Below, piece by piece: positions 2,398-6,567 of a DNA stretch of 6,972 bases. The DNA is from a virus (Duplodnaviria > Heunggongvirae > Uroviricota > Caudoviricetes). Position numbers and translations under genes: made by a program. Below the pieces are notes generated by a model. That model did no database searches. It saw only the letters and a list, made by a program, of their open reading frames with translations, and was not told the origin of the DNA. The DNA lies in IMG/VR virus record IMGVR_UViG_2700989366_000013; one strand, given 5' to 3'. The number at the start of each line of letters is the position of its first letter. Position 1 is the stretch's first letter.

Positions 2398-2427
2398 TTG
2401 ACCAGACACATTGTCCGGGGCTATATT
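2398..2427 (+). promoter_or_regulatory. candidate late promoter (pR'-like) immediately downstream of Q
   Basis: TTGACC (2398-2403), 18-nt spacer, TATATT (2422-2427), beginning 5 nt after the Q stop codon. This is the expected position of pR' and the qut site in lambdoid phages. Confidence 0.35.
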
Positions 2428-2480
2428 CCTCACGCGCCAGCAAAATCTGGCGTCGGGATTGGAACCCCGGATAGAGACCG

Positions 2481-2503
2481 CGACAGACACACGCCGCGAG
2501 CGT
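2481..2503 (+). terminator. intrinsic terminator (tR'-like) after a short leader
   Basis: Hairpin ACACGC (2481-2486) / GCGTGT (2492-2497) with 5-nt loop, followed by TTTTTATT. It lies about 60 nt downstream of the candidate -10. Confidence 0.45.
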
Positions 2504-2702
2504 GTTTTTTATTGTCGTATGCACGCGCACATCTGAATTATGGTGGGGCGCATGGGGGAGCTGAAAAGCTCGCCGGTCGGTTTCCCGGTAGTTCCAACCC
2601 TGTGCGTCTCACCACCCGATGATTGGAACCTGACGGTGTTGACAGTTTCAGGTTTGCAGTTTACATTTCCCCGCGGTGCTCAAAACACCTCGAAAGCGGT
2701 AT

Positions 2703-2730
2703 CCACACCCGATAGCCATGTGGTTTTTTT
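2703..2730 (+). terminator. weak second terminator-like hairpin plus T-run
   Basis: CCACA (2703-2707) / TGTGG (2719-2723) with 11-nt loop, then TTTTTTT (2724-2730). Short stem, so low confidence. It sits inside the N-terminal extension of the 2676 ORF call, which argues against that start. Confidence 0.25.
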
Positions 2731-2873
2731 GTGTCCAGAATTCTTGGTTTATGACCGGGTGTGCGGCTAATACAATACCAGCAATGGAAATACGCCCGCC
2801 GACTTTCGACGGTTTTGAGCGCCCGGTCACCCTCTCAAAAGGGGTAAATCAAAATATTCGAAAGGACATGTCT

Positions 2874-3626: not shown

Positions 3627-3703
3627 GGCCCTTTAGCTCAGTTGGTCAGAGCGAGCGACTCATAATCGCCAGGTCGCTGGTTCAAGTCCAGCAAGGGCCA
3701 CCA
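3627..3703 (+). tRNA. tRNA-Ile2 (anticodon CAU, lysidine type; ileX/ileZ-like); elongator tRNA-Met not formally excluded
   Basis: 77 nt including CCA. Hand-folded cloverleaf: acceptor GGCCCTT/AAGGGCC, D-stem GCTC/GAGC, anticodon loop CTCATAA, T-arm GCTGG-TTCAAGT-CCAGC. Sequence closely resembles E. coli ileX as recalled. Confidence 0.85.
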
Positions 3704-3704
3704 A

Positions 3705-3781
3705 CCACCACTAGCTCATCCGGATAGAGCATCAACCTTCTAAGTTGACGGTGCGAGGTTCGAGTCCTCGGTGGTGGGCCA
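3705..3781 (+). tRNA. tRNA-Arg (anticodon UCU, reads AGA)
   Basis: 77 nt including CCA. Acceptor CCACCAC/GTGGTGG, anticodon stem TCAAC/GTTGA with loop CTTCTAA, T-arm CGAGG-TTCGAGT-CCTCG. Begins 1 nt after the previous tRNA. Confidence 0.85.
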
Positions 3782-3783
3782 GC

Positions 3784-3859
<76 letters not shown>

Positions 3860-3862
3860 TAT

Positions 3863-3937
<75 letters not shown>

Positions 3938-4550: not shown

Positions 4551-4587
4551 AGGCCATCAGAGTTTTGCTGATGGCCTTTTTTCTTTC
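4551..4587 (+). terminator. strong intrinsic terminator in an ORF-free region
   Basis: Perfect 10-bp stem AGGCCATCAG (4551-4560) / CTGATGGCCT (4568-4577) with 7-nt loop, followed by TTTTTTCTTT. There is no T-run on the opposite strand, so it is + strand specific. Confidence 0.55.
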
Positions 4588-4845
4588 CGATAGCACAGGT
4601 CTGTCGGGGGGAAAACGTTTTTTGTACATTGTGGATTTTTACATGCTGATATGATTTATTTTCAATTAAATCAATTAGATATGACCTTGCCTTTAATTTC
4701 ACTAATGAAAGTTTGGGGGTGAGGTAACGCTATAAGCGTAGAGAATTCGGTGTATGTCGTGACCGTGTCATTTACAGCATTTTTGATGCCAGAAAATGTA
4801 CATTAACAGCAGAAAGCACCAGTGAGGGGGGTGCCCCTATTAAGT

Positions 4846-4851
4846 TGTCAA
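4846..4851 (-). promoter_or_regulatory. -35 half (TTGACA) of a predicted circle-junction promoter at the IS right end
   Basis: + strand TGTCAA at 4846-4851 is a perfect TTGACA on the - strand, 6 nt beyond the transposase stop. The next 17-35 nt on that strand (+ coordinates 4811-4829) contain no -10-like hexamer. Confidence 0.35.
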
Positions 4852-4856
4852 GCATG

Positions 4857-6053
4857 TTATGACCCCTGCGGGGTATAAAAAGTCCCGTCGCGCATCATGG
4901 CGAACAGAACGTCGCAGCGTCGTCTCGCCAGGGCGATAAGCGCCTGATTGTGTCGTTTTCCCTGACTCATTTTGCGGGTGTAGTAAGCCCTGGAGAGCGG
5001 ATCCCTGAGCGCGGCGAAGGCCGACAGGAACAACGCCCGTTTGAGAGCTTTATTACCCCGTCGCGAGGGATGCTCACCGCGTATTGACGAGCCGGATCGC
5101 CGAGTTACCGGCGCAAGGCCAGCATAAGCAGCGAGATGTGCGGCAGAGGCGAAGGCGCGGCAGGCGACCTCGGTGAGGAGTCTGGCTGCGGTCCTGACAC
5201 CGACTCCGGGCATACTGGTCAGGACCGGGTAAAGAGGGTGAGCAAGAACTCGCTGTTCTACCTCAAGCGCCACCTCGTCTCTTTGCTTACGCAGCGTGAT
5301 GAGCTGGAGTGCCAGACGTGGCAGTACTACGGCAGCGGCATTCGTGCCGGGAACGACGACGGTTTGTTCGGCCAGTGCCTGAGCTATGTCTGCTGCAAGG
5401 CGTTTACCCAGACGAGGCGCAAGTTTGCAGAGCTGGGCTGCCAGCTTCTTCTCACCCAGCGAAGCGAGTTTTTCTGGTGAGGGATATCGCTGGAGAAGAT
5501 CGAGTACCGCCGGGTGCTCAAGTCTCGGACCGAGAACGCGCTCCAGTGCCGGATGTATCTGGGTCAGAAGGCCGCGGATACGGTTGCTGGCCTGCGTTGT
5601 CTGTGCGGCAAGATCATCATCGAAGCCGCAGAGCATGGAGAGTTCGGCGATTTGCTCGTCAGCCAGTTTCAGCGTGCGTAGCGCGTGAGGCAGGGTACGG
5701 GCAGCTTCGGCAATGATGGCAGCGTCACGAGCATCAGTTTTAGCTTCACCGGCGTGTAAGTCGGCTATGCGGCGCATGGCCAGTCCAGGGAGGTATCCGA
5801 CAAGGACTCCTTCTGAGCGGGCAACGGCGACAGGTAACGCACCGATGGTAGCTGGCTGATCAACAACCAGCAGTATCTGACCATGTTGTTTCAGGTCAGA
5901 TATTAGCGACCTGAGTTTGTTTTCGTCGTTGGGTAATGCTTTATCGAACAGGCGTTTACCTGAACGATTAATGGCAACAGCGTGATGCGTATCTTTACCG
6001 ACATCAACGCCGATAAAGACCTGGACGGATTCGTAATCGCTGGATTCGGTCAT
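4857..6053 (-). CDS. IS110-family transposase/recombinase (DEDD RuvC-like N-terminal domain plus Tnp C-terminal domain), 398 aa
   Basis: N-terminus VFIGVDVGKDTHHAVAI (DEDD catalytic aspartates). C-terminal block MPGVGVRTAARLLTEV...AAYAGLAPVTRRSGSSIRGEHPSRRGNKALKRALFLSAFAAL...QGKRHNQALIALARRRCDVLFAMMRDGTFY is characteristic of IS110/IS116/IS900-type transposases. RBS GGGAGA on the - strand lies just upstream of the ATG at 6053. Confidence 0.9.
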   Translation of the reverse strand: MTESSDYESVQVFIGVDVGKDTHHAVAINRSGKRLFDKALPNDENKLRSLISDLKQHGQILLVVDQPATIGALPVAVARSEGVLVGYLPGLAMRRIADLHAGEAKTDARDAAIIAEAARTLPHALRTLKLADEQIAELSMLCGFDDDLAAQTTQASNRIRGLLTQIHPALERVLGPRLEHPAVLDLLQRYPSPEKLASLGEKKLAAQLCKLAPRLGKRLAADIAQALAEQTVVVPGTNAAAVVLPRLALQLITLRKQRDEVALEVEQRVLAHPLYPVLTSMPGVGVRTAARLLTEVACRAFASAAHLAAYAGLAPVTRRSGSSIRGEHPSRRGNKALKRALFLSAFAALRDPLSRAYYTRKMSQGKRHNQALIALARRRCDVLFAMMRDGTFYTPQGS

Positions 6054-6059
6054 TCTGTC

Positions 6060-6255
6060 TCCCTTGTATATGGGTTAACCAGATAACCACGGGGAGCAGG
6101 TACCGGCATCCACGTTACAGACGGTCCCGGCAAAAGTGCCTGACCTGACCCCTATTAGCGGTTACCAGCGCCCCACCAGACCCGGTGACATCACCCCCCG
6201 GATCATGGACGACTGGGGGCAGTAATCATGCCGGGTCTGGCTGGCTAACACCCCA
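6060..6255 (-). ncRNA. candidate IS110 bridge RNA in the transposase 5' leader
   Basis: About 195 nt, GC-rich, non-coding, between the - strand TATAAT (6255-6260) and the transposase RBS. Contains a perfect 10-bp long-range inverted repeat CCAGACCCGG (6176-6185) / CCGGGTCTGG (6231-6240) enclosing a nested C6/G5 stem (6194-6199 / 6215-6219). Position and size fit the IS110-group bridge RNA; no covariance-model support. Confidence 0.3.
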
Positions 6256-6260
6256 TTATA
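6255..6260 (-). promoter_or_regulatory. -10 half (TATAAT) of a predicted circle-junction promoter at the IS left end
   Basis: + strand ATTATA at 6255-6260 is a perfect TATAAT on the - strand. In the integrated state the position 17 nt upstream on that strand reads CCCGTT, not a -35. Confidence 0.35.
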
Positions 6261-6567
6261 AGGGGTACGAATAAAGTAACGGGGGTTCTTTTATTCTGTT
6301 ATATTGCATTTTTATTCACTTCGGTTTTGTCAGGCTTGCGGAATTAGCGAGCAGAGAGCGCCGTTCTGTTCACCAATAATCTAAATTACTCATCAAAATG
6401 GCTAATATATAATCTTGAAATTATTCTGAGAGTTTCAGAAAATAACAGCTGAAATAATCTCGCGCAAGACTGTAAATAGATTAAATTTTGTGGAAATATA
6501 ATAAGTGATCGCTTACACTACGCGACGAAATACTTTTTTGTTTTGGCGTTAAAAGGTTTTCTTTATT

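What the first reader, a model, noticed from the sequence alone, without database searches (positions are those of the whole stretch)
6060..6255. Structured 5' leader of the IS110-family transposase is a candidate bridge RNA
IS110-group elements encode a roughly 150-250 nt non-coding RNA in the non-coding end upstream of the recombinase. This RNA base-pairs with both target and donor DNA and programs recombination. Here the transposase (4857-6053, - strand) is preceded by about 200 nt of GC-rich sequence with no ORF. It has a perfect 10-bp long-range inverted repeat (6176-6185 / 6231-6240) enclosing a nested C6/G5 stem, the sort of multi-stem architecture expected for a 5' stem-loop followed by internal loops. 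The 398-aa transposase does not resemble IS621 as I recall it, so its guide loops and target specificity may be uncharacterised.
Basis: partly seen in the sequence, partly recalled or inferred. Interest (0 to 1): 0.6.

Follow-up and report, generated by a model that had tools for sequence, protein, structure and literature searches.

The report
Bridge RNA of insertion sequence ISEc20
The untranslated stretch upstream of this jumping-gene's recombinase very probably encodes the "bridge RNA" that guides the element into runs of C; this is an expected feature of its family, and a 2024 supplementary table already lists it for this element.

Summary
Window 4826-6285 is a copy of ISEc20/ISSfl4 (IS110 family, IS110 group). 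Its 398-aa recombinase (4857-6053, minus strand) is preceded by about 230 nt with no ORF longer than 34 aa.

Across 48 non-redundant relatives, the minus strand of about 6092-6268 keeps a 5' hairpin and two stem-loops. 19 base pairs show compensatory changes. Inside the two stem-loops lie four invariant segments with no compensatory change:
- AUAGGGG matches the right end of the element and covaries with it (G or A in both, 72 of 73 loci).
- GUAACGUG is complementary to the left end, CGTTAC.
- GGGGGG-UG is complementary to the C run flanking the right end, and to "CA + C run" in native empty sites.
- CCCCC is the probable left target guide.

Durrant et al. 2024 (Supplementary Table 5) already list ISSfl4/ISEc20 with a bridge RNA detected in the left end. 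The kind is known and this instance was predicted; the guide assignment above I did not find in print.

Unresolved: the exact crossover register, because the C-run lengths at the junctions do not add up. Expression and binding were not testable here.

The parts
4826..6285 (-). ISEc20/ISSfl4 copy including the C runs at both junctions. The unambiguous element is 4832-6280.
   Evidence: Full-length copies at 99-100% identity in more than 1100 E. coli genomes, annotated 'IS110-like element ISEc20 family transposase'. Ends defined by aligning copies in different contexts.
4857..6053 (-). Recombinase gene, 398 aa (DEDD RuvC-like domain plus Tnp domain with the conserved Ser).
   Evidence: Pfam PF01548 (E = 6.9e-49) and PF02371 (E = 7.1e-22). 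Distant match to the IS621 structure 8wt6, with SGSS aligned and KTDxxDA aligned.
6092..6268 (-). Candidate bridge RNA, about 177 nt: 5' hairpin, target-binding loop, donor-binding loop. The 5' and 3' ends are inferred, not mapped.
   Evidence: Covariance model R1, built from 48 relatives, matches 6081-6284(-) at 205.7 bits. Covariation statistics. Alignment A1.
6250..6266 (-). 5' hairpin ACCCC-UUAUAAU-GGGGU.
   Evidence: Palindrome I4. The stem covaries in relatives (CCUC/GAGG, CCUU/AAGG), though this stretch aligns poorly (helix 1).
6231..6241 (-). Target-binding loop, outer stem, 5' strand (GCCAGACCCGG).
   Evidence: Pairs with 6175-6185. 6 of 11 pairs show compensatory changes and 98% of cells are paired (helix 2).
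6175..6185 (-). Target-binding loop, outer stem, 3' strand (CCGGGUCUGGU).
Evidence: helix 2.
6215..6219 (-). CCCCC: proposed left target guide (same sense as a C-run target).
   Evidence: Nearly invariant in relatives and never compensated against the G tract. The left junctions of copies end in CCCC. This assignment is weaker than the other three.
6190..6199 (-). GGGGGG-UG-AU: proposed right target guide plus handshake-like nucleotides.
   Evidence: Complementary to the right junction CA-CCCCCC; the modal flank is 6 C. Also complementary to A(T/A/C)CA-C(4-11) in 5 of 8 native empty sites. L077 has GGGGUG together with flank CACCCC.
6164..6173 (-). Donor-binding loop, basal stem, 5' strand (GGGCGCUGGU).
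   Evidence: Pairs with 6092-6101. 7 of 9 pairs have compensatory changes, up to 18 sequences per pair (helix 3).
6092..6101 (-). Donor-binding loop, basal stem, 3' strand (ACCUGCUCCC).
   Evidence: helix 3.
6149..6157 (-). UAAUAGGGG: proposed left donor guide, identical to the right-end terminus.
   Evidence: A 9-nt identity with 4834-4842; 0.96% of shuffles do as well. The last G/A covaries with the right end: G/G in 58 loci, A/A in 14, one true mismatch. More distant relatives extend the match to AUAGGGACA(C).
6122..6146 (-). Stem-loop between the two donor guides.
   Evidence: 4 of 6 pairs show compensatory changes (helix 4).
6110..6118 (-). GUAACG-UG-G: proposed right donor guide.
   Evidence: Complementary to the left-end terminus C-GTTAC (inverted repeat I6). 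Invariant in all relatives. Chromosomal pseudo-sites containing CGTTA(C/T) are joined to the right end in 5 independent loci.
6276..6285 (-). Left-end terminus GTTAC (6276-6280), preceded by the CCCCC run (6281-6285) that holds the left crossover.
4826..4840 (-). Right-end terminus: ATAGGGG (4834-4840), CA (4832-4833), then the flanking CCCCCC run (4826-4831).
   Evidence: (A/C)ATAGGG(G/A)CA-CCCCCC is conserved in relatives from Proteobacteria and Actinobacteria.
4846..4851 (-). TTGACA in the right end: candidate -35 box of a promoter completed only across a right-end/left-end junction. The partner -10 candidate is TACTTT, 6273-6278.
   Evidence: TTGAC(A/G/T) sits at a fixed distance from the end in essentially all relatives. 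The promoter role is inferred by analogy with IS621 (PMC11208160). The linear window shows no promoter-like site here.
6059..6065 (-). Shine-Dalgarno AAGGGAG of the recombinase gene. The leader 6054-6091 is not conserved among relatives.

Best explanation
The minus strand of about 6092-6268 encodes the bridge RNA of ISEc20, an IS110-group element.

Shown by sequence comparison:
- The RNA has a 5' hairpin and two stem-loops whose helices are kept by compensatory changes.
- Each stem-loop carries two invariant single-stranded segments.
- In the second stem-loop (donor-binding loop), AUAGGGG has the same sequence as the right end of the element, and GUAACG-UG is complementary to the left end, (CA)CGTTAC.
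- In the first stem-loop (target-binding loop), GGGGGG-UG is complementary to CA followed by a C run, and CCCCC has the sense of that run.

Inferred by analogy with IS621:
- After excision, the right end and left end are joined. A promoter (-35 TTGACA from the right end, -10 from the first bases of the left end) then drives a roughly 180-nt RNA.
- The RNA binds a recombinase tetramer.
- The strands are exchanged at a short core beside the CA, inserting the element with GTTAC... on one side and ...GGGGCA-CCCCCC on the other.

Because the target is a homopolymer, the two target guides are complementary to each other. That is why a fold predicts a C/G stem.
For: Family and layout:
- IS110-family recombinase with both Pfam domains. 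The non-coding left end is about 227-233 nt and the right end about 25-32 nt, the IS110-group layout.
- Durrant et al. 2024, Supplementary Table 5, row 'ISSfl4 | LE | IS110 | ISEc20;ISSfl4'.

Structure:
- The scaffold helices covary. There are 19 pairs and 125 cells with changes on both sides, reached by 0 of 500 shuffles (the count of 19 pairs alone by 3 of 500). Sliding the partners drops pairing from 92% to 30-51%.
- The guide segments are invariant, with zero compensatory changes.

Donor guides:
- Position 7 of the left donor guide covaries with the right end: 58 G/G, 14 A/A, 1 mismatch, in two distant clades.
- The 9-nt identity with the right end has p of about 0.01.
- The right donor guide is complementary to the left-end terminus (I6).
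- Five independent junctions read ...ATAGGGGCA|CGTTA(C/T), where the right end is fused to a chromosomal pseudo-site. The mdtA case has native CCGCGTTAC and a 580-bp deletion.

Target guides:
- The right flank is CCCCCC in most of about 100 copies.
- Five of eight native sites have CA immediately 5' of the C run.
- L077 pairs GGGGUG with flank CACCCC.

Architecture:
- Both 3' sides share the pattern '6-nt guide + UG', mirroring the pseudo-symmetry of the two IS621 loops (PMC11208158).
- More distant relatives (59-71% aa identity) keep the same architecture.
Against: - There is no direct evidence of transcription, RNA ends, or binding.
- No sigma-70-like site is found in the linear window, and the junction -10 (TACTTT or GTTACT) is weak.
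- Nearly all relatives share the same ends and the same C-run target, so guide/DNA covariation rests on one variable donor position (two clades) and single cases for the target.
- CCCCC and GGGGGG could form a real helix; invariance cannot decide this.
- The left target flank of native sites does not resemble the proposed left target guide.
- Junction C-run lengths do not fit a conservative 2-bp-core exchange with any single number of donor C's.
- My covariance model does not detect the IS621 bridge RNA, so homology to the characterised RNA is by architecture and genomic position, not by sequence.
Confidence: 0.87

Rival explanations
1. The leader is an ordinary structured 5' UTR that controls translation or stability of the recombinase mRNA. 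It has no guide function.
For: It lies directly upstream of the start codon. The minimum-free-energy fold includes a hairpin over the Shine-Dalgarno region. [quoted passage not shown]
Against: The part next to the Shine-Dalgarno site (6054-6091) is the least conserved. The conserved single-stranded segments match the two element ends and the flanks, and one covaries with the right end. A UTR model does not predict this.
Confidence: 0.04
2. The conserved segments act as double-stranded DNA: subterminal repeats bound by the recombinase, as in classical transposon ends. They do not act as RNA.
For: AUAGGGG and GUAACG are copies or complements of the termini, which is what subterminal protein-binding repeats look like.
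Against: The helices around them are kept by compensatory changes on both sides. That selects for pairing within one strand, not for a duplex DNA motif. The arrangement matches the published RNA architecture.
Confidence: 0.04
3. It is a bridge RNA, but CCCCC/GGGGGG is a genuine helix (the distal stem of the first loop). Target recognition then uses other nucleotides, for example only UGAU and neighbours.
For: The tracts pair in 99% of sequences and in the minimum-free-energy and RNAalifold structures. In IS621 a short stem-loop sits between the two target guides.
Against: There are no compensatory changes. The three variants seen give G·A, C·U and U·G. The flanks of the element are exactly C runs, whose modal right-hand length (6) equals the G tract.
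Confidence: 0.1

Closest known systems
IS621 bridge RNA (E. coli; Durrant et al. 2024, PMC11208160; Hiraizumi et al. 2024, PMC11208158)
   Same: - Encoded in the left end upstream of a DEDD/Ser recombinase, and about 177 nt long.
- A 5' hairpin followed by two pseudo-symmetric stem-loops.
[quoted passage not shown] The 3' side is complementary to core plus right half, followed by two further nucleotides in the position of the handshake guides.
- A -35 box near the right-end tip.
   Different: - The recombinase is only distantly related (E = 1.2e-14; 398 vs 326 aa).
- There is no detectable RNA sequence similarity.
- The target is a C run rather than a REP-type 14-mer with a CT core, so the two target guides are homopolymers complementary to each other.
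- The core is probably CA or CC rather than CT and is not pinned down.
- No experiments exist for this element.
Other IS110-group members of the same recombinase cluster (IS110 of Streptomyces, ISBma3, ISAar2 and others; Durrant Supplementary Table)
   Same: Same recombinase cluster. ISBma3-type elements from Burkholderia and relatives carry the same RNA and the same ends.
   Different: None of substance. ISEc20 differs by a few loop-adjacent bases (UGAU vs UGUU; AUAGGGG-UC vs -CU).
IS1111-group seekRNA / bridge RNA
   Same: Same recombinase family and the same principle of dual guide loops.
   Different: That RNA lies in a long right end, downstream of the gene, and those elements have 7-17-bp subterminal inverted repeats. 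Here the right end is only about 25-32 nt and the RNA is upstream.
ISPpu10 and CazIS110-1 (bioRxiv 10.64898/2026.03.19.712850; 10.1101/2025.10.25.684509)
   Same: IS110-family bridge systems reported with variant RNA architecture or alternative strand-transfer pathways. This may bear on the irregular junctions seen here.
   Different: I used only their abstracts. No direct comparison was made.

Membership tests
IS110-group bridge RNA | Lies in the non-coding left end, upstream of a recombinase with a DEDD RuvC-like domain (PF01548) and a Tnp domain (PF02371). | tested here: met
   The catalytic D, D..D and SGSS motifs align with IS621.
IS110-group bridge RNA | The left end is much longer than the right end. 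| tested here: met
   Left end 6054-6280 (227 nt) versus right end 4832-4856 (25 nt).
IS110-group bridge RNA | [quoted passage not shown] | tested here: met
   19 pairs with compensatory changes, reached by 3 of 500 shuffles; 125 such cells and the covariation score are reached by 0 of 500.
IS110-group bridge RNA | In the donor loop, the 5' side has the sense of the left donor (right-end tip) and the 3' side is complementary to core plus right donor (left-end tip). | tested here: met
   AUAGGGG matches ATAGGGG with G/A covariation. GUAACG(UG) is complementary to (CA)CGTTAC.
IS110-group bridge RNA | In the target loop, the 3' side is complementary to core plus right target, and the 5' side has the sense of left target plus core. 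| tested here: inconclusive
   The 3' side is met: GGGGGG-UG against CA-C run flanks and native sites. The 5' side (CCCCC) matches the left junction of inserted copies but not the left flank of native sites.
IS110-group bridge RNA | Donor and target share a short core at which strands are exchanged conservatively. | tested here: inconclusive
   CA (or CC) is the candidate core. Junction arithmetic across 8 native/occupied pairs fits no single register.
IS110-group bridge RNA | [quoted passage not shown] | tested here: inconclusive
   A perfect TTGACA is conserved in the right end. The -10 candidates are TACTTT and GTTACT. Spacing depends on the unknown number of junction C's. Right-end/left-end junctions with 3 and 5 intervening C's are seen in metagenome contigs.
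IS110-group bridge RNA | Expressed as a discrete RNA of roughly 150-250 nt that binds its recombinase. | not testable with these tools
   No expression or binding data are available here.
IS110-group bridge RNA | Detected by a bridge-RNA covariance model. | not testable with these tools
   The published models are not available here. The authors report detection in the left end for ISSfl4/ISEc20. Rfam 15 misses even the IS621 RNA, so its silence on the window is uninformative.
IS1111-group seekRNA | The RNA is encoded in a long right end downstream of the gene, with 7-17-bp subterminal inverted repeats. | tested here: not met
   The right end is only about 25 nt. The conserved structured RNA lies upstream.

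The most novel reading that the evidence does not exclude
ISEc20-type elements may be bridge recombinases with homopolymeric, mutually complementary target guides whose recombination is not register-faithful.

Observations behind this reading:
- Junction C runs have near-constant lengths (left about 4, right about 6) whatever the native run length (4-11).
- Native A or T bases next to the run are replaced by C in several occupied sites.
- The right end is repeatedly fused to CGTTA pseudo-sites, with deletion of the DNA in between.

This would mean slipped or sequential, independently registered strand transfers, or guide-directed conversion of the flanks. It would also give an RNA-guided route to deletions and frameshifts at C/G runs in E. 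coli and Shigella genomes.
Probability: 0.2. Interest if true: 0.6.

Novelty: already known. Interest (0 to 1): 0.3.

Why it matters
It confirms that a common E. coli/Shigella insertion sequence carries the RNA guide expected for its family, and it gives a concrete reading of that guide: the donor is ATAGGGG-CA-...CGTTAC and the target is CA plus a C run.

That reading explains three things:
- why ISEc20 sits at C/G runs in genes and prophages;
- why the right end is sometimes fused to CGTTAC-like sites with loss of neighbouring genes (for example ibsA and the 5' part of mdtA);
- why a fold shows a C/G 'stem'.

As a discovery it adds little, because the mechanism was published in 2024 and this element is in that paper's table. 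The only open point of wider interest is how a homopolymer-guided bridge system keeps, or fails to keep, its register.

Tried and rejected
1. Rfam 15 scans of the whole window and of 6040-6300 found nothing relevant. The positive control showed that Rfam also misses the genuine IS621 bridge RNA, so this result carries no weight.
2. My own covariance model R1 scores the window at 205.7 bits but does not find the IS621 RNA. Relatedness to IS621 cannot be shown at the RNA sequence level.
3. I tried to fix the crossover by comparing occupied and empty sites: yfhM, dgcE, alaE-stpA, terminase, an alpha/beta hydrolase gene, yecD, a phage holin-upstream site and a Paraburkholderia paralogue. Models with 1, 2 or 3 donor C's and core CA, AC or CC each fit some sites and fail others.
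4. A metagenome pattern scan for right-end/left-end junctions returned 47 stretches, of which only 3 are real. One is a true head-to-tail tandem, so these cannot be taken as circle junctions.
5. I considered TATAAT in the loop of the 5' hairpin as an internal promoter. It is not conserved in relatives and has no -35 partner.
6. PGAP annotates a 56-aa 'hypothetical protein' across the left end in one genome. It is flank-dependent and I rejected it as a gene.

Full report
**What is in the window.**
- The ORF at 4857-6053 (minus strand, 398 aa) carries both domains of IS110-family recombinases, PF01548 and PF02371.
- Megablast against complete E. coli genomes finds the stretch from about 4825 to 6286 at 99-100% identity in more than 1100 genomes. 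It occurs in many different contexts and at up to 10 places per genome, always annotated 'IS110-like element ISEc20 family transposase'.
- Aligning copies with different flanks places the ends as follows, in recombinase orientation: flank-CCCC|GTTACTTTATTCG...(left end)...(right end)...TTGACAACTTAATAGGGGCA|CCCCCC-flank.
- In window coordinates, GTTAC is 6276-6280 and GGGGCA ends at 4832. The left end is about 227 nt with no ORF above 34 aa; the right end is about 25 nt.
- The rest of the window is prophage DNA on one side (isrK, C4 RNA, four tRNAs) and the alaE-stpA intergenic region with stpA on the other.

**The observation.**
- The minus strand folds somewhat better than its shuffles (z = -2.7).

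**Comparative evidence.**
- A search of one genome per species returned 80 loci encoding relatives at 73-100% amino-acid identity. They come from Enterobacterales, Burkholderiales and other Proteobacteria, and from Microbacteriaceae.
- A viral-contig scan added about 27 more ISEc20 copies, and a metagenome scan added three relatives at 59-71% identity.
- The left ends align along their whole length.
- On 48 non-redundant sequences, four helices are kept by compensatory changes: the 5' hairpin, the outer stem of a first stem-loop (6231-6241 with 6175-6185), the basal stem of a second (6164-6173 with 6092-6101), and an inner stem-loop (6122-6146).
- Overall, 92% of cells are paired, 19 pairs have changes on both sides, and there are 125 such cells. 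No shuffle in 500 reaches the cell count or the covariation score (3 of 500 reach 19 pairs), and sliding the partners by 1-3 columns drops pairing to 30-51%.
- Between these helices lie four segments that hardly vary and never change in a compensatory way.

**The four segments match the DNA they should guide.**
- *Left donor guide.* In the second stem-loop, the 5' segment UAAUAGGGG (6149-6157) is identical to the right-end tip TAATAGGGG (4834-4842); under 1% of shuffles do as well. Its last base is G in 58 loci whose right end reads ATAGGGG, and A in 14 loci whose right end reads ATAGGGA. There is one true exception. The A/A loci come from two distant clades. In more distant relatives the identity extends to AUAGGGACA(C).
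- *Right donor guide.* The 3' segment GUAACGUGG (6110-6118) is complementary to the left-end tip (I6).
- *Right target guide.* In the first stem-loop, the 3' segment GGGGGG-UG-AU (6190-6199) is complementary to the right junction CA-CCCCCC. The flank is six C's in most copies, with conservation fading away from the element.
- *Native empty sites.* Five of eight have CA directly 5' of a C run: yfhM atCA-C7, an alpha/beta hydrolase gene gcCA-C11, dgcE aaCA-C6, this window's own site aaCA-C4, and a phage terminase gene acCA-C4.
- *One covarying relative.* L077 has GGGGUG in the RNA and CACCCC in the flank.
- *Left target guide.* The 5' segment CCCCC (6215-6219) has the sense of the run.
- *Shared pattern.* Both 3' sides read '6-nt guide + UG'. 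This is the kind of pseudo-symmetry described for the two loops of the IS621 bridge RNA, where the 3' guide covers core plus right half and is followed by handshake nucleotides.
They are complementary to each other only because the target is a homopolymer.

**Independent functional trace.**
- In five unrelated loci the right end is joined not to a C run but directly to CGTTA(C/T)...ATAGGGGCA|CGTTAC... (L014/L016, L053, L149, L153, L171).
- For the Shigella/E. coli case, the left flank lies upstream of ibsA and the right flank lies inside mdtA. The native mdtA sequence at the breakpoint is CCGCGTTAC, a 9-nt match to GUAACGUGG with one G·U pair. About 580 bp have been lost.
- L153 shares its left flank with normally flanked copies (L156, L165).
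- These look like excision-type events that used a pseudo-left-end chosen by the right donor guide.

**Comparison with what is known.**
- The layout, size and logic are those of the IS110-group bridge RNA.
- Durrant et al. 2024, Supplementary Table 5, has the row 'ISSfl4 | LE | IS110 | ISEc20;ISSfl4'. Their models had therefore already detected a bridge RNA in the left end of this element cluster.
- I found no paper giving its structure, guides or target.
- The recombinase is a distant relative of IS621, and the RNAs share no detectable sequence.
- Rfam 15 does not recognise even the IS621 RNA, so its silence on the window means nothing.

**What remains unsolved.** I could not fix the crossover.
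- The five hybrid junctions, two left junctions (L032, L087...CA-CGTTAC) and the yecD site, which has an internal T marker, fit a donor junction GGGGCA-C-GTTAC.
- The yfhM site, the phage holin-upstream site, a tRNA-Ser-like site, a true tandem dimer (L103) and L142 fit GGGGCA-CCC-GTTAC. L109 shows five C's.
- In three sites the native A(A/C)CA next to the run is absent from the occupied allele and C's stand in its place. There the right-hand run is six even where the native run is four.
- In the hydrolase gene the occupied allele has fewer C's than the native one.
- At yecD one copy keeps the native T in the right flank, while two others have C there.
- Possible causes are different ancestral alleles, homopolymer assembly errors, slippage after insertion, slipped register of homopolymeric guides, or two independently registered strand transfers. 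I cannot choose between them.

**Verdict.** It is an expected member of a family described in 2024 and was already flagged in that paper's supplement, so the interest is modest. The guide assignment and the irregular junctions are the only new points.

Noticed in passing
window 4560-4620: Prophage DNA ends at a G run (tctgtcGGGGGG, 4606-4611) and is joined through AAAA to the alaE-stpA intergenic region (CGTTTTTTGTACA..., from 4616). Other genomes carry an ISEc20 copy at exactly this phage G run (L011, L012, L148, L150). In the intact chromosome the breakpoint lies 4 nt from GTAAC (CCGTAACGGCT|CGTTTT). It looks like a scar of an ISEc20-mediated deletion or fusion, but the 4-nt filler is unexplained.
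   Followed up: partly
L014 / L016 (Shigella flexneri and E. coli), with empty site L090 200-800: The right end of ISEc20 is fused to codon ~75 of mdtA at the pseudo-site CCGCGTTAC. About 580 bp, including ibsA and the mdtA start, are deleted. Similar right-end|CGTTA fusions occur in L053, L149, L153 and L171.
   Followed up: partly
L143 170-250 (terminase) and L094 200-225 (dgcE): Two alleles without the IS differ from the common native allele exactly at the ISEc20 target. The terminase allele is cccg-CCCC-A, lacking ACCA. The dgcE allele is ccagA-C10, where K-12 has AACA-C6. Both genes are annotated as frameshifted. They may be footprints of IS visits or assembly errors.
   Followed up: no
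L103 (metagenome contig SWCF01002164.1), minus orientation 1-2100: A head-to-tail tandem of two copies of a 63%-identical relative, separated by CA-CCC. It is either an insertion into the C run beside a resident copy or a dimer intermediate.
   Followed up: partly
L009-L088: Recombinases at 73-82% identity, with nearly identical RNA and ends, occur in both Proteobacteria (Burkholderia, Duganella, Ralstonia, E. coli) and Actinobacteria (Microbacterium, Pseudoclavibacter, Leucobacter). This indicates recent transfer between phyla.
   Followed up: no
window 2421-2836 and 3627-3934: The window carries a prophage regulatory region and tRNA genes. Rfam matches isrK (2434-2510), C4 antisense RNA with its a1/b1 target (2536-2619, 2421-2473) and sRNA-Xcc1 (2753-2836). 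Four tRNA genes lie at 3627-3934; a related prophage annotates them as Ile, Arg, Thr and Gly.
   Followed up: no
window 4826-4841: The right junction GGGGGG-TG-CCCC (+ strand) is itself a near-palindrome. As a result the C5 guide is complementary both to the G6 guide and to the GGGG of the left donor guide, so cross-pairing between guide segments is possible.
   Followed up: no
L002 1741-1911: RefSeq annotates a 56-aa 'hypothetical protein' on the bridge-RNA strand across the left end and into the flank. It is probably a spurious call over the non-coding RNA.
   Followed up: no
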